Origin: a virus
Taxonomy: Duplodnaviria > Caudoviricetes
DNA: 64,000 nucleotides
Reading direction: 5' to 3' (one strand)
Virus record (IMG/VR): IMGVR_UViG_3300042013_000018
Span: 1-64,000 of that record
Of this stretch, positions 46,641-53,661 are shown piece by piece. A model generated the notes under the pieces. The model was not told the DNA's origin. It ran no database searches and worked only from the letters and a program-made list of their open reading frames with translations. The position numbers and the translations under genes are program-made. Positions within the stretch are counted from its first letter, which is position 1; every line of letters starts with the position of its first letter.

Positions 46641-48083
46641 TTAGGTGAAGAGGTTTGGTCTAGTCAAATTTGCTGAGATCAGGCCAGAAGTGAAGTTTGG
46701 AATAATTTGTCTTTGAGCAAGGGTAATGAAAGAATCACTAGTTGCATCGACTTGATCATCCTTATTTTTACGGCTGCCATCGAAGCTTTCCAACTCGTCA
46801 AAGTATGTATCGTTCCAATCAGCTTCAACATAATCAATCAGACCCGCTTCGGCGGCTGCTGCGAATGGTTGGAAACGTGTTATTTTTGACTTGTTAGAAG
46901 GGCGCATTCTGGCGTAAAACCCGTCTGACAAAAGCTCTTTAATCATCATCTGTCCGGCAGCTTTACCGGCTTGTCCGGGCTCTTGAGGCAAGATAATCTC
47001 TGTACTTGGTGGGTCAGATTTGGCTGTTTCAATAATCTTAGCCATAACTTCACCAAACCTTGCACGAAACCTAACAACATCAACTACAATATATCGACCT
47101 TGTTTTGTCTTACCAATTAAAACACCAGCCGTCCAGTCAGGATTTGGTAAGGATTCCGATGGGATGGAACCTGCTATATCCCATGCACGACAGTAAGACA
47201 CAATCTCTTTATCGAACAAATTAACTTTACTACAGAATTCTTTTTTCATGAATCCTGCTGCACTTTCGCGAACAAACCAATTGCCCTCTAGGAGCCGTTT
47301 ACGTTCAGTACCACGAAGACCTTTAAGCCAAGCTACATATTTAGGGTTAACTTCTTCTACAATTTTATTATCATAAACGTTAGCGCTAATAAAGGTAAAA
47401 GATAGAGCATCTTGCTCTCTTACACCATACTCAGCCAGAAGTTGTTGTTTAGTATCACCCCAAACAAAATCACCATCCATGAAAGAAAAGTATCTCAACA
47501 TCCCATCTTTTGAACGGTCAGGAGTTCCATCTTCTTGCAAATAAGGTTCAACCCACTTTCTGAGGCCGTGGTCAGCATCAGGATTGCAGGTGATTTTAAG
47601 GTGAGGTTTGATCGAAGGGCAAGAAGGGTTACGCATACGAGACATGATATATTGTATCATGTACATCGTATATTGAGTTCCCTCATCAATATAGAAAAGA
47701 TTAGCTTCAGAACCTTGCCAGTTTACATCCGCTGCATCATTCTCAAAGTGCTTGAGATAGATTTCAGCACCACTAGCATGGAACACGAATTTACCATCTT
47801 TCGCACGCCACGTATATTCATCTGGTTTATATGCTTGACTAAATACGCGCTTACATTTAGTTAGCAAACCACCCGGACCATTAAGTTGAGGCGTTGTACG
47901 ACGGGTCATTACACCAATGAAGTTTGGAATGTCTGTATACTTGAGGAAGTCGATAACCCCAATTTCACTTTTTCCGCTCGCGGCTGCGCCACCGAATAAG
48001 GTTACGTCAGCCTCCGAGGCGATATACATACTTTGACGTAATGAACATGGCCCCGGTAGCTTTTTCTCAAGAATTTCAGCCAC
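46641..48083 (-). CDS. terL: terminase large subunit
   Basis: Walker A GGAAASGKS, Walker B YIDEG, TCNP, RNase H WDIA and DDQVDATS; GTG start 48083 after GAGGAGG. Confidence 0.95.
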   Translation of the reverse strand: MAEILEKKLPGPCSLRQSMYIASEADVTLFGGAAASGKSEIGVIDFLKYTDIPNFIGVMTRRTTPQLNGPGGLLTKCKRVFSQAYKPDEYTWRAKDGKFVFHASGAEIYLKHFENDAADVNWQGSEANLFYIDEGTQYTMYMIQYIMSRMRNPSCPSIKPHLKITCNPDADHGLRKWVEPYLQEDGTPDRSKDGMLRYFSFMDGDFVWGDTKQQLLAEYGVREQDALSFTFISANVYDNKIVEEVNPKYVAWLKGLRGTERKRLLEGNWFVRESAAGFMKKEFCSKVNLFDKEIVSYCRAWDIAGSIPSESLPNPDWTAGVLIGKTKQGRYIVVDVVRFRARFGEVMAKIIETAKSDPPSTEIILPQEPGQAGKAAGQMMIKELLSDGFYARMRPSNKSKITRFQPFAAAAEAGLIDYVEADWNDTYFDELESFDGSRKNKDDQVDATSDSFITLAQRQIIPNFTSGLISANLTRPNLFT

Positions 48084-49239
48084 TTGTGGCCTCCTCAATG
48101 TATTTAATAATCAAGTCTTTAGCTTCATTACTAAAGCATTCAGTGTAGCCTGTGAACTTCTTAGTTGGTTTATGATAATAACCAAGAGATTTTAGTTCTC
48201 GCATAATCTTTCTTTCAAGATTTGCTGAGTCTATATTAATCATCTCTTTTTCATATACAAAGCTGTAATCGTAAATATCTTTTTGACGTTTGTAAACCTT
48301 TTCTCGGCCCTTCTTATTACAAGTAATACCAAGCTTAAGGAAAGATTCTTCACCATCAGACATTTCAATAATATAAATAGAACCTAATCTTTGACCAAGT
48401 TCTACATCTTCAGTGTATCGGTCAACCATATTATATGTTGTTTTATCATAAGTGCATTGGGCGCAACCTTTACCTTTTACGTGGCATAGTGGTCGTTGCT
48501 CAAAAATCCCATGAACATCACATACAATCTTAACCTTTGTTTCTGTATTTACGTATTCTGCAAATTCATAAGAGTATTTATCTTTATGAATTTGCTTTGC
48601 CCGTTCAATAAAATATTCTGTTGTGTATTCTGAATAGCGTTGAAGTAAACTTCTTTCAACACCGCACTTAGGACAACCATTTCCATACATATGCGGTCCG
48701 GCTGATTGAATAAACTCACCATGCTCTGGACAGCCAATGATAACTTTCTGAGTGAAGCCTTTAGTTAAAATAGCTTTAGAATAGTCATATTTATTTCCAT
48801 GAAACTCTATGCTCTTAGCTAGAAAGTCATCTTGTGATAGTCTCTGCTTTTGTACGCTGCATTCTGGACAGCCACGGGACACCAAGTGGTGTGCTACCGT
48901 CTGACTGAATACCCCATGATCCTTACAAATAATATCGATTTTACTTGTAGTCTTGGTTGTAGTCACTAAACAATAGTCAAACTTGTTTTTGTGTATTGCG
49001 GAGGCTTCAACAACAAAGTCTTCAATAGAACGCTTGAGTGGGATAGACTCATGAACACAATGGCGACAACCTGCACCTTTCAGGTGAGAGTCTGTTCGCT
49101 GAACAAATATACCATGATCTGTACATTCAATATCAATGTAATATCTAGGACCTCGTGCTTCCCAAGCAACATACTTATATTTGCTATCGTGCACGCTATT
49201 TGCTTTTTCTATAAATCTCTCGAAATTAAATTCTGGCAA
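48076..49239 (-). CDS. homing endonuclease-like protein (tandem C..HG.F.Q....H..GC..C repeats + C-terminal GIY-YIG-like domain)
   Basis: Four Zn-ribbon repeats; GSIYIIEM..FLKLGIT. Confidence 0.8.
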   Translation of the reverse strand: MPEFNFERFIEKANSVHDSKYKYVAWEARGPRYYIDIECTDHGIFVQRTDSHLKGAGCRHCVHESIPLKRSIEDFVVEASAIHKNKFDYCLVTTTKTTSKIDIICKDHGVFSQTVAHHLVSRGCPECSVQKQRLSQDDFLAKSIEFHGNKYDYSKAILTKGFTQKVIIGCPEHGEFIQSAGPHMYGNGCPKCGVERSLLQRYSEYTTEYFIERAKQIHKDKYSYEFAEYVNTETKVKIVCDVHGIFEQRPLCHVKGKGCAQCTYDKTTYNMVDRYTEDVELGQRLGSIYIIEMSDGEESFLKLGITCNKKGREKVYKRQKDIYDYSFVYEKEMINIDSANLERKIMRELKSLGYYHKPTKKFTGYTECFSNEAKDLIIKYIEEATSG

Positions 49240-49269
49240 AACTGAAACCTCTGATTAGGTATTTAATAG

Positions 49270-49325
49270 GTGAGAGCTATCTACTGAATCAGCAGTAGAA
49301 GGGCTTGCAATCCTGTTCGCTCTCA
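49270..49325 (-). ncRNA. three-way-junction structured RNA element upstream of endonuclease gene
   Basis: GAGAGC/GCTCTC closing stem, AGG-ATTGCAAGC-CCT hairpin, TCTACTG/CAGTAGA hairpin. Confidence 0.6.
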
Positions 49326-49335
49326 TTGTATTTCG

Positions 49336-49683
49336 TTATTCTACTTGACCACTTGCTTTCAAATACTGGCTTGTCATAACCGAGCGGTCTCTGCCCCCAA
49401 TACCATGCTTCTTCTTCACTACAGCTTTAAACTCAGACCATTCCATATCATCAAGCTGTTCTTTCGTGAAGTTCTCTTGCATCACTTGAAACTGAAACCC
49501 CGGTTTGTTTTCCATAAGCTTGTCAGTCTTCAGATACATCCAGCAGCTATGAGGGAAACGCAATGCTGGCACTTTATCTTCTTCAAGAGTAGCGCCCATA
49601 TTGGCTAGCTCAATAACATTCTTCATGAATGTGTAGCCAATACCGTCATTACCTGTAACCAATACTTTATATTCATTTGCCAT
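49336..49683 (-). CDS. conserved hypothetical protein of packaging region
   Basis: 115 aa, RBS GAGGAG. Confidence 0.8.
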   Translation of the reverse strand: MANEYKVLVTGNDGIGYTFMKNVIELANMGATLEEDKVPALRFPHSCWMYLKTDKLMENKPGFQFQVMQENFTKEQLDDMEWSEFKAVVKKKHGIGGRDRSVMTSQYLKASGQVE

Positions 49684-51294: not shown

Positions 51295-51309
51295 CTTAAC
51301 ACCTTTTTA

Positions 51310-51640
51310 TATTTATTTTTAGGTGTCTGGTTATCAAGAGGTTTTATAGCCGCAACAACAGACTACTACGGCTTCTAAGAATACAGCCTCTGTCTGTCTT
51401 GGGGTGTAACGAATAAGTGTGACCATTTCAGGTCACGAACCCCACCAGAGGTTCTAGGGGTCTCAGGAACTAGCTGAGATACCAAGCCGAGGCTTGATTA
51501 GTATTCCCTTGTTCTCACCCTACACCAACGAACATATAGAAATTGATGGGGTTGCTCTATACAGCCAAGGGAAATTCTTTATAGGTCATTTAAGCCCTAT
51601 TAAACCGTCTTTATAGTATTAGTGGGTCAACTATAGTCTT
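51310..51640 (-). ncRNA. candidate structured non-coding RNA downstream of terS
   Basis: At least 7 hairpins/long-range stems in an ORF-free gap; G-U pairs favour minus strand. Confidence 0.55.
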
Positions 51641-51646
51641 TAAGCT

Positions 51647-52051
51647 TTATTCGTCTTCCGGGTCAATATACACCAATGAAAGACGTGGTTTAAGCTCAGC
51701 AGCAATCTCCTTAGGAGTTTGTTCAGCTTCTTCATCTTCACGCTTGCCTTTCAGACGAGCATTGAACGAACCAAGCTCTTCTGCGCTTGCACTCTTGATC
51801 ACCGAGACAATAGAGTTCAGTACCCACTTGGCACTTGCAACACTGTCAGCATTAACTTCTGTGCCAGCCAAACTCTTGTCTACTAGCTGTAGTGCAAGGT
51901 CTTGACGCTCAAGAAGCTTGTCAGCGAGTTCACGAAGTTTACTCTTCTTGATTCGAGTAGAAGAGTTTCCTGAAGTATTCCGATTACTTTTTTCGCCGTC
52001 GAACTGTGTCGCACGAGACTTGTCAGTTTGTGTGGGCTTCTTATTTGCCAT
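51647..52051 (-). CDS. terS: terminase small subunit (putative)
   Basis: 134 aa; N-term ATQFDGEKSNRNTSG basic motif then helical region; upstream of terL. Confidence 0.65.
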   Translation of the reverse strand: MANKKPTQTDKSRATQFDGEKSNRNTSGNSSTRIKKSKLRELADKLLERQDLALQLVDKSLAGTEVNADSVASAKWVLNSIVSVIKSASAEELGSFNARLKGKREDEEAEQTPKEIAAELKPRLSLVYIDPEDE

Positions 52052-52084: not shown

Positions 52085-53095
52085 TCAAATCTCAATACCA
52101 CCATACTCTAAGAATATTTCTCTTACAGTATCCAGATTTAATACCGAGGTTGTTTCAGAAAACCCTGCCTTCATGAATTCTCTAGGGACAATCCCACAGA
52201 CTAATGTACTTTTACAATAACTCTCAGCCGCTCGGCACTGATTTCGATCATTGAAATGGAAAAGATGTGTATTTTCAATTCGAAATACTGAGCTATATCT
52301 CTGTTCCTTAAGCCTTCTGGTTATGTCAGAAGTTATTCCGAATTTTATCGCAATAGGTAGATCATTATCGTAAACAATGTTGATATAAGATTGGTTCTGG
52401 TTTCCAAAGTTTGTACAGCCACAGCAGTAGACACCCCTCTTCAGTGCAGATGCTTGAGCTTCGCCATAAACATTACAGACGGGGCATTCTACTGACCAGT
52501 ATATGGCGAACCCGCTAGGACGTTTACCCAACCTTTTAAAGATAGTGTCAGGGTGATATTTTCCACTAGCAAAGAAAATGTCGCATGTCACAGAATTCTT
52601 ATGTACTTTACGATCTATGGACTTAGATTCATTACCACAGGAAGGGCACCCTCTTCCTAATTTAACTAAATTAGATAACTTACCGGATGTCCATGTCCCG
52701 TGCTTATTGCAAACAAGCTTGCATAGTGTGGTAGCTCCAATATAAGCTTCAGCCCATCCATCAAAATAGAATCCAAGTTCAGAACTCTTTCTCGTAGCTA
52801 AAAGTTTCCACTGATCTTCAGTCCAACGAACTCTAGGAGAGCAACCACAAGGTATCTGACCTCTATTTAAGTCTGTGAGCGTTGCCCAGAAGAAACCTTG
52901 ATCAAAAAGTTCAGGATCTTTGGCACACTCATGACACTTGAGATAGTGTATATTGTAATTTTTACTAGGATGTTTACTATAACCTAGCAACTCTAACTGT
53001 GGGTAGTTTACAAAAATAAAGCCATACTGAACATCATCCATTCTCTTTAAGTGGACGTTCTTCATATCTGCAATCATAAAACCTTCTTTAGTCAA
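52085..53095 (-). CDS. homing endonuclease-like protein (Zn-finger repeats + C-terminal GIY-YIG/T5orf172-like domain)
   Basis: C..C and C.KHG..GCPSC repeats; SYINIV..AIKFGIT.DI.RRL.EQ. Confidence 0.8.
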   Translation of the reverse strand: MTKEGFMIADMKNVHLKRMDDVQYGFIFVNYPQLELLGYSKHPSKNYNIHYLKCHECAKDPELFDQGFFWATLTDLNRGQIPCGCSPRVRWTEDQWKLLATRKSSELGFYFDGWAEAYIGATTLCKLVCNKHGTWTSGKLSNLVKLGRGCPSCGNESKSIDRKVHKNSVTCDIFFASGKYHPDTIFKRLGKRPSGFAIYWSVECPVCNVYGEAQASALKRGVYCCGCTNFGNQNQSYINIVYDNDLPIAIKFGITSDITRRLKEQRYSSVFRIENTHLFHFNDRNQCRAAESYCKSTLVCGIVPREFMKAGFSETTSVLNLDTVREIFLEYGGIEI

Positions 53096-53099
53096 ACTA

Positions 53100-53432
53100 C
53101 CTGATAAGCCGCAACAGGGACGTTCAACTAACCCTACTCAAAAAGTAGTTTGCTAAAGAAGTCTTTCTGTTGGACGTTTCTAAAGGCTGTTGCGCAGCCT
53201 GTGTAAAGTATGTAAATACTTTCTAAAATTATCTCAATAGGACAATACCTACAATATGCTACGCAAGGAGATAATTTTAGAAAGCTCACTGATAGTCGGG
53301 AGAGGGCAACTACCAATGAGTAAAGACATTTCTTGAGGAGAGCAAGTTGTCTTTAAGGTCCGGCATGAGGAGGGAGACGCCGGGAGGAAACACAGCATTA
53401 ATAGAATTTCTTCTTGGTAGCTGTGGTGAAAC
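53100..53432 (-). ncRNA. candidate multi-hairpin RNA with anti-SD-like (CUCC) loops
   Basis: Five or more abutting hairpins; 14-bp stem with 3 G-U pairs only on minus strand; 16-bp perfect stem. Confidence 0.7.
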
Positions 53433-53506
53433 TGGTGCCCCAGTAAGGAATCAAACCTCACTCTGTTGATTACAAGTCAACTGCATCATCACAATGCTTC
53501 AAGGGC
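53433..53506 (-). tRNA. tRNA-Thr (anticodon UGU), CCA encoded
   Basis: GCCCTTG/CTGGGGC acceptor, GCAT/ATGC D stem, GTTGA-CTTGTAA-TCAAC anticodon arm, TGAGG-TTTGATT-CCTTA T arm, ACCA. Confidence 0.9.
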
Positions 53507-53633
53507 GAATCAGTTAGTAGAATTAAAACCCTTTACCGTCACGGACTGCCCTTTTCACAGGGAGGAACACAACCATTATTATATAATGGGACACTTCAGT
53601 GTTTTTAATGTTCTTTGCTATTTCACGTTTACT

Positions 53634-53661
53634 ATTATACAGACTTATTTGAGAATGTCAA
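53634..53661 (-). promoter_or_regulatory. strong sigma70 promoter driving tRNA/ncRNA/terS transcript
   Basis: minus strand TTGACA-16 nt-TATAAT, both hexamers consensus. Confidence 0.8.

What the first reader, a model, noticed from the sequence alone, without database searches (positions are those of the whole stretch)
53100..53432. tRNA-linked multi-hairpin RNA displaying anti-Shine-Dalgarno (CUCC) loops
Seen (minus strand, directly 3' of the tRNA-Thr CCA): abutting hairpins CACAGC/GCUGUG; linker UUUCCUCC; CCGGCGU-[CUCCCUCCUC]-AUGCCGG (53360-53383); UAAAGACA..CUUG-[CUCUCCU]-CAAG..UGUCUUUA (53321-53355); a 14-bp stem with three G-U pairs closing [CCCUCUCC] (53285-53320); and a perfect 16-bp stem (53220-53283) with CUCCUU at its inner junction; then two more hairpins. 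The leader also has UUCCUCCCU. The G-U pairs fix the strand, and a consensus TTGACA-16-TATAAT promoter lies upstream. Some segments match phage RBS regions in this window: UUGCUCUCCU pairs with AGGAGAGCAA before the 41807 gene, and CCUCCUCA pairs with the terL RBS UGAGGAGG. Established: alphaproteobacterial cuckoo sRNAs present CCUCCUCCC loops. Inference: an undescribed phage RNA, released by tRNA processing, that uses several anti-SD seeds to repress host or phage translation, or acts as a decoy mimicking the 16S 3' end.
Basis: partly seen in the sequence, partly recalled or inferred. Interest (0 to 1): 0.85.

Follow-up and report, generated by a model that had tools for sequence, protein, structure and literature searches.

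The report
Phage tRNA-linked RNA with pyrimidine loops
A clade of uncultured soil phages keeps a roughly 215-base, five-stem RNA next to their tRNA genes; three of its loops carry a sequence like the ribosome's mRNA-docking tail, so it probably blocks ribosome-binding sites, but no experiment has tested this.

Summary
On the minus strand, directly after tRNA-Thr, five abutting helices (P1-P5, 53425-53219) fold far better than shuffled sequence (z -8.7).

The RNA is conserved. I found it in at least 35 contigs of related 83-93 kb uncultured phages and in all five complete genomes checked. It is always single-copy, on the gene strand, downstream of a near-consensus promoter and upstream of a conserved 134-aa gene.

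Covariation is strong: 54 of 61 modelled pairs show compensatory changes and 92-95% of cells pair. Conserved G-U wobbles fix the strand. The loops of P2, P3 and P4 are 93-99% pyrimidine and carry CUCC in 66 of 69 cases (core YCUCUCCU).

- The 'two more hairpins' belong to the 5' UTR of an inserted homing-endonuclease gene and hide its ribosome-binding site.
- The linker, the leader and the P5-junction CU motifs are not conserved.
- The cited target matches are no better than any Shine-Dalgarno site gives.

The RNA matches no Rfam family, no cultured phage and no bacterial genome. The function is inferred: most likely a stable RNA cut out with the tRNAs that pairs with AGGAG-type sites. Protein-platform and operon-leader roles remain open.

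The scan noted this same family earlier on other DNA (e1-5899583).

The parts
53634..53661 (-). Sigma-70-type promoter TTGACA-16-TATAAT that drives the tRNA/RNA unit
   Evidence: 12 of 12 consensus positions. Near-identical promoters, including the spacer AAATAAGTCTG, lie 120-970 nt upstream of the RNA in L120, L107 and L090; 10-12/12 promoters occur in 13 of 22 loci.
53507..53633 (-). Transcribed leader between promoter and tRNA; contains UUCCUCCCU
   Evidence: Sequence. About 54 nt match L002 upstream of another tRNA at 81% identity. The CU motif here was not tested for conservation.
53433..53506 (-). tRNA-Thr (anticodon UGU) with encoded CCA
   Evidence: ARAGORN. Rfam tRNA, 47.3 bits, E 5e-8. 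92% identical to the tRNA-Thr of L002.
53426..53432 (-). Conserved single-stranded 5' motif (A)GUUUCAC(C) directly after the CCA; possible endonuclease (RNase E-type) site
   Evidence: UUCACC is invariant or nearly so in 23 sequences. It is present whether or not a tRNA precedes it. The nuclease assignment is inference from the published RN|WUU preference, recalled from my own knowledge.
53391..53425 (-). P1: 6-bp helix enclosing a small AAGA...UCU hairpin; its loop is not CU-rich in this subgroup
   Evidence: All 6 pairs show compensatory changes and 100% of cells pair (helix 1).
53360..53383 (-). P2: 7-bp helix, loop CUCCCUCCUC
   Evidence: All 5 basal pairs are compensatory (helix 3). The loop has CUCC in 21 of 23 homologues, with 0% G.
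53321..53355 (-). P3: UAAAGACA...UGUCUUUA helix with an inner CUUG/CAAG stem, loop CUCUCCU
   Evidence: 7 of 8 pairs are compensatory (helix 5). The loop has CUCC in 22 of 23 homologues.
53285..53320 (-). P4: 14-bp helix with three G-U pairs, loop CCCUCUCC
   Evidence: 14 of 14 pairs are compensatory and U-G is conserved at A12 columns 9-92. The loop has CUCC in 23 of 23 homologues, and CUCUCC is nearly invariant.
53219..53284 (-). P5: perfect 17-bp helix (CUUUCUAAAAUUAUCUC / GAGAUAAUUUUAGAAAG) capped by a junction with two small hairpins; 3' end of the conserved module
   Evidence: 15 of 17 stem pairs and 4 of 5 inner-hairpin pairs are compensatory. No U-tract terminator follows it in any homologue.
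53078..53218 (-). Not part of the RNA family: 5' UTR of the inserted homing-endonuclease gene. It holds a small hairpin (53200-53184) and a long hairpin (about 53161-53083) that pairs CUUCUUUAGCAAACUAC with GUAGUUUGACUAAAGAAG and so buries the RBS AAGAAGG
   Evidence: Fold. The segment 53077-53199 matches L004 5166-5284 (73% identity, E 9e-11). In L004 it precedes a different (HNH-type) endonuclease ORF that lies upstream of the RNA.
52085..53077 (-). Inserted homing-endonuclease-like gene (330 aa; CapR domain plus T5orf172/GIY-YIG-like domain)
   Evidence: Pfam CapR E 8e-18 and T5orf172 E 3e-4. It is absent from this position in most relatives, where the RNA ends 25-35 nt before the 134-aa gene.
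51647..52051 (-). Conserved 134-aa gene that the RNA precedes throughout the clade; function unknown (basic disordered N-terminus, helical hairpin, acidic tail)
   Evidence: 37 loci found with it. No Pfam or PHROG family. AlphaFold2 mean pLDDT 72, helices 38-61 and 68-104. No PDB fold match at E <= 0.001.

Best explanation
Shown:
- This is one member of a previously uncatalogued family of phage non-coding RNAs, about 215 nt long with five abutting helices P1-P5.
- It is encoded on the gene strand, within the first kilobase or so downstream of a near-consensus host-type promoter.
- It sits among the phage's tRNA genes and upstream of a conserved small gene that opens the long minus-strand gene block running through the terminase gene and onward.
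- Its structure is under selection.
- Three hairpin loops always display a G-free pyrimidine motif, YCUCUCCU, with a CUCC core. That core equals the core of the 16S rRNA anti-Shine-Dalgarno tail.

Inferred:
- The RNA is co-transcribed with the tRNAs.
- It is freed by the same processing. Maturation of the upstream tRNA's 3' end, perhaps by RNase E at the conserved AG|UUUCACC, would make its 5' end.
- RNase P at a downstream tRNA, or RNase III/E at the long P5 helix, would make its 3' end.
- It then accumulates as a stable RNA.
- Its three loops then pair with AGGAG(A/G) ribosome-binding sites of mRNAs and block 30S binding. That would make it a multivalent translational silencer, in the manner of the CU/C-rich-loop sRNAs of bacteria.
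- Which mRNAs (host, or phage genes of another temporal class) is not known.
For: Fold and conservation:
- The window fold has z -8.66.
- 23 full-length homologues each give the same five domains by single-sequence folding.
- At least 35 contigs hold the RNA, and it is single-copy in all five complete genomes checked.

Covariation:
- 5' half: 92% of cells pair, 21 of 25 pairs are compensatory, score 0.69 against 0.18 shuffled and 0.05-0.11 slid.
- 3' half: 95.5% pair, 33 of 36 pairs are compensatory, score 0.65 against 0.20 shuffled and 0.06-0.09 slid.

Strand:
- G-U pairs are conserved at fixed positions.
- The sense fold is more stable than the antisense fold in 22 of 23 sequences.

Loops:
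- P2, P3 and P4 loops are 93-99% C+U and about 0% G, with CUCC in 21, 22 and 23 of 23 sequences. Of the P1 and P5 loops, only one (a P1 loop) has CUCC.
- A strict CUCC core, rather than any pyrimidine run, fits base pairing with GGAG.

An independent gene rather than an operator of the next ORF:
- Its distance to the 134-aa gene ranges from 25 nt to 3.5 kb. Homing-endonuclease genes, tRNAs or whole genes are inserted on either side, but never inside.

tRNA linkage:
- Its start abuts the CCA of tRNA-Thr, Arg, Gly or Leu, and a tRNA-Gln follows 4-8 nt after P5 in L090.

Potential targets and precedent:
- 42-55 of about 110 genes per genome have GGAG in the RBS window, and GGAGA, the exact complement of UCUCC, is the commonest form.
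- The distantly related phage PAK_P3 makes very abundant small RNAs from its tRNA region (PMC4933390).
Against: - There are no expression data, so accumulation, ends and processing are all unobserved.
- No intrinsic terminator follows P5, so the RNA could simply remain the 5' part of the operon mRNA.
- Complementarity to an RBS is generic. No orthologous phage gene ranks consistently as best target in five genomes.
- The AGGAGAG-type RBS enrichment seen in this genome is not shared by its relatives.
- One RNA with three seeds cannot titrate all cellular SD sites, so specificity would need something not yet seen.
- The invariant geometry (helices abutting without linkers, conserved wobble pairs, conserved P5 base) looks as much like a protein- or ribosome-binding scaffold as a pairing sRNA.
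Confidence: 0.4

Rival explanations
1. Protein-binding scaffold or sponge. The rigid five-helix body presents three pyrimidine loops in fixed geometry to a multimeric pyrimidine-specific RNA-binding protein. One candidate is the transcription terminator Rho, whose primary sites bind YC dinucleotides; the RNA would then act either as a loading (rut-like) site that stops early transcripts before the late genes, or as a trap. Other candidates are ribosomal protein S1, a cold-shock or KH protein, or a phage protein such as the adjacent 134-aa product.
For: - The loops are (UC)n-like, G-free and C-rich.
- The helices abut with 0-3 nt linkers, and the wobble pairs and P5 base are conserved, which suggests a defined three-dimensional shape.
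- The RNA lies in an untranslated stretch between a strong host-type promoter and the structural genes, where a transcription checkpoint would make sense.
- There is constant synteny with a small basic protein of unknown function.
- Rho's YC preference is from my own knowledge.
Against: - Known rut sites are about 80 nt and unstructured. Here only 8-18 nt per loop is single-stranded.
- Rho or S1 binding would not require the strict CUCC core found in 66 of 69 loops.
- No known RNA-binding fold or family was detected in the 134-aa protein.
- Genes can separate the RNA from that protein's gene by up to 3.5 kb.
Confidence: 0.25
2. Cis-acting operon leader. The RNA stays attached to, or acts only on, the transcript that carries it. 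It could work as a processive antiterminator (like HK022 put or the Bacillus EAR element), as a 5' stabiliser, or as an RNase III processing site (P5) for the roughly 33-kb minus-strand operon that follows.
For: - It is always on the operon strand and promoter-proximal, upstream of the first conserved gene of a long co-directional gene block.
- There is no terminator between it and the next gene.
- A perfect 17-21-bp P5 is a plausible RNase III substrate (the enzyme preference is from my own knowledge).
- An analogous leader RNA ahead of the packaging operon was noted in marine phages (e1-5867186, unchecked).
Against: - There is no resemblance to put, EAR or any Rfam cis-element.
- This role gives no reason for three conserved CUCC loops.
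- tRNA genes on both sides imply endonucleolytic cuts that would detach it from the downstream mRNA.
Confidence: 0.2
3. The functional molecule is the opposite (+) strand, a CsrA/RsmA-type sponge whose hairpin loops display AGGA/GGA motifs; or the element acts as DNA, for example as a packaging site near the terminase genes.
For: - On the + strand every P2-P4 loop reads (A)GGAGAG(R) and contains GGA (sequence).
- The element lies in the packaging-gene neighbourhood.
Against: - Conserved G-U pairs would be A-C mismatches on the + strand.
- The sense fold is more stable in 22 of 23 sequences.
- The antisense matches to the covariance model score 18-29 bits against 30-115 bits for sense.
- There is no convincing + strand promoter or terminator around it.
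- Compensatory hairpin evolution is not expected for a double-stranded DNA site.
Confidence: 0.03

Closest known systems
CU/C-rich-loop anti-SD sRNAs of bacteria: cuckoo/alpha-r14 family (CcsR, NfeR1), Listeria LhrC, Staphylococcus RNAIII and RsaE (from my own knowledge of the literature)
   Same: Several hairpin loops each display a redundant pyrimidine seed complementary to Shine-Dalgarno sequences. The multivalent design is the same.
   Different: This RNA is phage-encoded, not chromosomal. It has no Rho-independent terminator and is linked to tRNAs. It is much larger, with five abutting helices. Its motif is YCUCUCCU rather than CCUCCUCCC or UCCC. It matches no Rfam model. Its function is untested.
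Stable 'band C/D' (species 1 and 2; rnaC, rnaD) RNAs of the phage T4 tRNA cluster
   Same: Both are phage non-coding RNAs encoded among tRNA genes and, in T4, co-transcribed and processed with them. [quoted passage not shown]
   Different: There is no sequence similarity: no T4-type record was hit in 50,697 phage records. The size and architecture differ, and the T4 RNAs are not known for CU-rich loops.
sRNA1 and sRNA2 of Pseudomonas phage PAK_P3 (PMC4933390)
   Same: PAK_P3 is a distant myovirus relative. Its small RNAs come from the tRNA region that precedes the packaging module. They are highly abundant late in infection and their function is unknown.
   Different: They are not homologous: the best covariance-model E-values are 0.27-5. 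They are about 85-130 nt and GC-rich, without CU loops, and the sRNA1 region is not unusually structured (z -0.4).
C4 antisense RNA of phages P1/P7 (Rfam C4)
   Same: It is a phage RNA cut from a longer transcript by a tRNA-processing enzyme, and its loops pair with a ribosome-binding region (my own knowledge).
   Different: C4 is about 77 nt and has one defined target in its own operon. Here there is no Rfam match and no conserved single target.

Membership tests
Cuckoo / alpha-r14 sRNAs (Rfam ar14-type models) | Match to the family covariance model | tested here: not met
   cmscan of 6 kb and then of the 256-nt element alone, at E up to 10, lists no such family.
Cuckoo / alpha-r14 sRNAs (Rfam ar14-type models) | Hairpin loops carrying CCUCCUCCC | tested here: inconclusive
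   The loops are CU-only with a CUCC core, but the consensus is YCUCUCCU. CCUCC occurs in only some loops.
Cuckoo / alpha-r14 sRNAs (Rfam ar14-type models) | Stand-alone gene ending in a Rho-independent terminator | tested here: not met
   No terminator-like site follows P5, and no U-tract follows it in the homologues. The element is embedded in a tRNA/operon transcript.
tRNA-cluster stable RNAs of phages (T4 band C/D type) | Encoded within or beside the phage tRNA gene array on the same strand | tested here: met
   It abuts tRNA-Thr in the window. It abuts tRNA-Thr, Arg, Gly or Leu in other loci, and a tRNA-Gln follows it in L090.
tRNA-cluster stable RNAs of phages (T4 band C/D type) | Co-transcribed with the tRNAs, excised, and accumulating as a stable species | not testable with these tools
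   No RNA run holds the locus. This needs a northern blot or RNA-seq of an infected host.
tRNA-cluster stable RNAs of phages (T4 band C/D type) | Sequence homology to rnaC/rnaD | tested here: not met
   blastn of the region against 50,697 phage records hit only a tRNA-sized stretch of one Vibrio phage.
PAK_P3 sRNA1/sRNA2 | Sequence and structure homology | tested here: not met
   Model R2 run with filters off on the PAK_P3 region gave a best E of 0.27, and 5.2 over sRNA1.
C4 antisense RNA (P1/P7) | Rfam model match, and a defined complementary target in the phage's own genome | tested here: not met
   No Rfam hit. Duplex ranking of all translation-initiation regions in five genomes gave no orthologous top target.
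CsrB/RsmZ-type CsrA sponges (read on the + strand) | Transcribed strand displays GGA in hairpin loops | tested here: not met
   GGA is in the loops only on the + strand. Conserved G-U pairs, fold energies and model scores all favour the minus strand.
Rho utilisation (rut) sites | C-rich, G-poor and largely unstructured over about 70-80 nt | tested here: not met
   The loops are C-rich and G-free, but the element is one of the most structured stretches in the window (z -8.7). Each single-stranded run is only 8-18 nt.

The most novel reading that the evidence does not exclude
The RNA is a multivalent mimic of the 3' tail of 16S rRNA. Made in bulk from a consensus promoter and cut out with the tRNAs, its three CUCCU-bearing loops would act as decoys for something that recognises the ribosome's anti-Shine-Dalgarno tail. 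One candidate is an abortive-infection endoribonuclease of the MazF type, which cuts CUCCU-like sites in rRNA. Another is a host factor that gates 30S activity. The phage would thereby protect or reprogramme translation without pairing to any mRNA.
Probability: 0.07. Interest if true: 0.85.

Novelty: new variant of a known kind. Interest (0 to 1): 0.6.

Why it matters
Lytic phages are thought to control translation mostly with proteins. Their few known small RNAs, such as T4 band C/D and the PAK_P3 sRNAs, have had no assigned function for decades.

This RNA comes with a ready-made comparative data set:
- at least 35 homologues;
- a well-supported fold;
- three invariant loop motifs;
- clean module boundaries, marked by mobile-element insertions.

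Together these point to a testable mode of action on ribosome-binding sites or on the ribosome itself. The same scan has noted similar tRNA-linked RNAs with pyrimidine loops in other phage clades. If those notes hold, RNA-based control of translation could be a widespread and overlooked phage strategy. It would also offer an explanation for the long-known non-tRNA RNAs found in phage tRNA clusters.

Tried and rejected
- Rfam: no family matched, either in 6 kb around the element or in the 256-nt element alone.
- Cultured phages: blastn of the locus and tblastn of the 134-aa protein against 50,697 records found no relative.
- Bacterial genomes: neither the protein-profile scan nor a 32-base P5 pattern matched any of the 185,579 species genomes. 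This gave no host clue.
- Expression: no RNA holder is listed among public runs. The DNA holders are rhizosphere, leaf-litter and soil metagenomes.
- Plain MAFFT alignments of all 23 sequences gave no RNAalifold consensus because helix lengths vary. I replaced them with covariance-model alignments.
- 134-aa protein: no Pfam, PHROG or PDB-fold match. A small-terminase or RNA-binding role is therefore unproven.
- Idea that the loops are tuned to a phage-specific AGGAGAG ribosome-binding site: rejected as a family trait. This genome has 12 such genes, but four relatives have only 3-7.
- Idea of one conserved phage target: no orthologous family ranks consistently high.
- Idea that the loops kiss purine loops of the second structured RNA downstream of the small gene: no GGAG-rich loops were seen there.
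- PAK_P3 sRNA1 shares the 5' words UCACCACAC, but it is not homologous by covariance model and is not unusually structured.

Full report
**What is in the window**

The genome is an 84,049-bp IMG/VR virus record with terminal repeats and 41% G+C. It is only distantly related to Pseudomonas myoviruses of the PAK_P1/M1/phiPMW kind.

Read on the minus strand, the finding's region runs in this order:
- a perfect TTGACA-16-TATAAT promoter at 53661-53634;
- a leader of about 125 nt;
- tRNA-Thr(UGU) with encoded CCA at 53506-53433;
- directly after the CCA, five abutting helices;
- two further hairpins;
- the ATG at 53077 of a 330-aa ORF with CapR and T5orf172/GIY-YIG-like domains, that is, a homing-endonuclease-type gene;
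- a 134-aa ORF at 52051-51647.

An HNH endonuclease gene lies upstream of the promoter.

**Check of the observation**

The 333-nt stretch folds at -108.4 kcal/mol against -68.7 +/- 4.6 for dinucleotide shuffles (z -8.66). I name the helices P1 (53425-53391), P2 (53383-53360), P3 (53355-53321), P4 (53320-53285) and P5 (53284-53219).

**Homologues**

A neighbouring gene led to the relative L004. There blastn found the same element at 71% identity, with visibly compensatory stems. A short pattern scan added L082.

A search with the conserved 134-aa protein gave 37 loci from 83-93 kb uncultured phages. A profile of the three RNAs found the element in 23 of them, always on the ORF strand and upstream of the ORF.

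Two covariance models, R2 for P1-P3 and R1 for P4-P5, raised this to at least 35 contigs, including JGI metagenome contigs.

In loci where coding sequence abuts the ORF, the RNA lies 2.6-3.5 kb further upstream on the same strand. The one complete genome that seemed to lack it has a divergent copy in which a fourth hairpin loop (the P1-like one) is also CU-rich. All five complete genomes examined therefore carry exactly one copy.

**Structure and strand**

Each of the 23 full-length sequences, folded alone, gives the same five top-level domains.

On the model-guided alignments:
- In the 5' half, 92% of cells pair and 21 of 25 pairs show changes on both sides. The covariation score is 0.69, against 0.18 for shuffles and 0.05-0.11 for slid partners.
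- In the 3' half, 95.5% of cells pair and 33 of 36 pairs are compensatory. The score is 0.65, against 0.20 for shuffles and 0.06-0.09 for slid partners.

These alignments are fitted to the model, which favours it. The independent single-sequence folds say the same thing.

G-U pairs are conserved at fixed positions of P4 and P5. The sense fold is more stable than the antisense fold in 22 of 23 sequences. The RNA strand is therefore the gene strand. This disposes of the otherwise attractive reading of the + strand as a CsrA sponge with GGA loops.

**The loops**

The terminal loops of P2, P3 and P4 are 93-99% pyrimidine with essentially no G. They contain CUCC in 21, 22 and 23 of 23 sequences. 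Of the loops of P1 and P5, only one (a P1 loop) has CUCC. The core is YCUCUCCU, and CUCUCC in P4 is nearly invariant.

Three CU motifs are not conserved:
- the UUUCCUCC linker, which is UAUUCAC in many homologues;
- the CUCCUU at the P5 junction;
- the leader motif, as far as I examined it.

**Module boundaries**

The two 3' hairpins are not part of the family. The segment 53077-53199 is homologous to the 5' UTR of a different (HNH) endonuclease gene in L004. In L004 that gene sits upstream of the RNA rather than downstream. The long hairpin pairs the endonuclease's RBS (AAGAAGG) into a stem of about 17 bp. This is the RBS sequestration known for phage homing endonucleases (my own knowledge).

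In L082 and most other loci there is no endonuclease, and P5 ends 25-35 nt before the 134-aa gene. In eight loci a cassette holding a tRNA or a tRNA-like element sits there instead. Insertions thus flank the element but never enter it. They define it as AGUUUCACC through the end of P5.

**Link to tRNAs and promoters**

The first base of the conserved 5' motif follows the CCA of tRNA-Thr, Arg, Gly or Leu in at least eight loci. In L090 a tRNA-Gln begins 4-8 nt after P5. Near-consensus sigma-70 promoters lie 120-970 nt upstream in many loci. No terminator follows P5.

**What it is not**

- It matches no Rfam family, either in 6 kb or in the element alone.
- It matches none of 50,697 cultured-phage records.
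- It matches none of the bacterial species genomes.
- The small RNAs of PAK_P3 come from that phage's tRNA region and are highly abundant late in infection (PMC4933390). They are the nearest experimental precedent but are not homologous.

**Function**

Nothing here measures function.

Points in favour of base pairing with Shine-Dalgarno sequences:
- The CUCC core is strict, which a pyrimidine-binding protein would not need.
- Potential partners are abundant. GGAG occurs in the RBS window of 42-55 of about 110 genes per genome, and GGAGA, the exact complement of UCUCC, is the commonest form.

Points against a specific regulator:
- The AGGAGAG enrichment is peculiar to this genome.
- No orthologous gene is a consistent best target.

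The variable distance to the next gene, and the tRNAs on both sides, argue that it is an independent, excised RNA rather than an operator of the 134-aa gene. The absence of a terminator and the constant promoter-proximal position keep a cis-leader role open. The rigid, linker-less architecture keeps a protein or ribosome scaffold open.

The 134-aa protein has a disordered basic N-terminus and a helical hairpin, and matches no family or fold.

I put:
- the anti-SD pairing model at 0.40;
- a protein platform or sponge at 0.25;
- a cis leader at 0.20;
- the opposite strand or a DNA element at 0.03;
- the remainder on other or unknown roles, including a 16S-tail decoy.

**Relation to earlier notes of this scan**

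The same family was already reported from another genome (e1-5899583). That note describes a clade of Felix-O1-like uncultured phages carrying an RNA of about 220 nt with five hairpins and three pyrimidine loops. My results agree with it and were obtained independently here.

Analogous tRNA-linked CU-loop RNAs were noted in other phage clades (e1-5867186, e1-5848571). I did not check those.

**Verdict**

This is a real, well-supported new RNA family and a new variant of a known kind: CU-loop anti-SD-like RNAs, and phage tRNA-cluster RNAs. The mechanism is plausible but untested.

Noticed in passing
window 51295-51646 (minus strand): A second non-coding, structured stretch of about 350 nt lies between the 134-aa gene and the next ORF (MFE -101 kcal/mol, z -3.3). 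Earlier scan notes (e1-5963581, e1-5926563) call it a separate conserved RNA family. The small gene is therefore flanked by two large structured RNAs.
   Followed up: partly
window 53078-53218 and L004 5140-5285: The same 5' UTR module, a small hairpin plus a long RBS-sequestering hairpin, precedes two different homing-endonuclease ORFs. In the window it precedes a CapR/T5orf172 ORF and in L004 an HNH-type ORF. These are inserted on opposite sides of the RNA.
   Followed up: partly
window 46641-49683 (minus strand): The terminase large subunit ORF (485 aa) matches only positions 144-615 of its PHROG profile. It is preceded by a 387-aa HNH endonuclease ORF and a 115-aa ORF. The terminase gene may be split by an endonuclease insertion, or an intron or intein may be present.
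   Followed up: no
L089, L093, L095, L096, L117, L118, L119, L090: between P5 and the 134-aa gene: Cassettes of 100-290 nt are closed by a conserved stem (AAUAUUUCUCAUGUGU ... ACACAGCAGAAAUAUU). Several contain GGUUCGAUUCC T-arm-like sequences that ARAGORN does not call as tRNAs.
   Followed up: no
whole genome G000 (window 1-64000 and beyond): Ribosome-binding sites favour GGAGA (29 genes) over GGAGG (7). AGGAGAG occurs before 11 genes. GGAGAG occurs before 12 genes, 10 of them on the + strand modules and not in the operon headed by the RNA. Four relatives show only 3-7 such genes.
   Followed up: yes
window 53634-53661; L120, L107, L090: The promoter spacer (AAATAAGTCTG / AATAAATCTG) is conserved along with the -35 and -10 hexamers in several relatives. 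This may reflect a regulator site or simply close kinship.
   Followed up: no
L150 (Pseudomonas phage PAK_P3 85340-85430): The published sRNA1 begins UCACCACACGAA, which resembles the 5' words of this family (UCACCACAC...). No homology was found by covariance model, so it is probably coincidence.
   Followed up: yes
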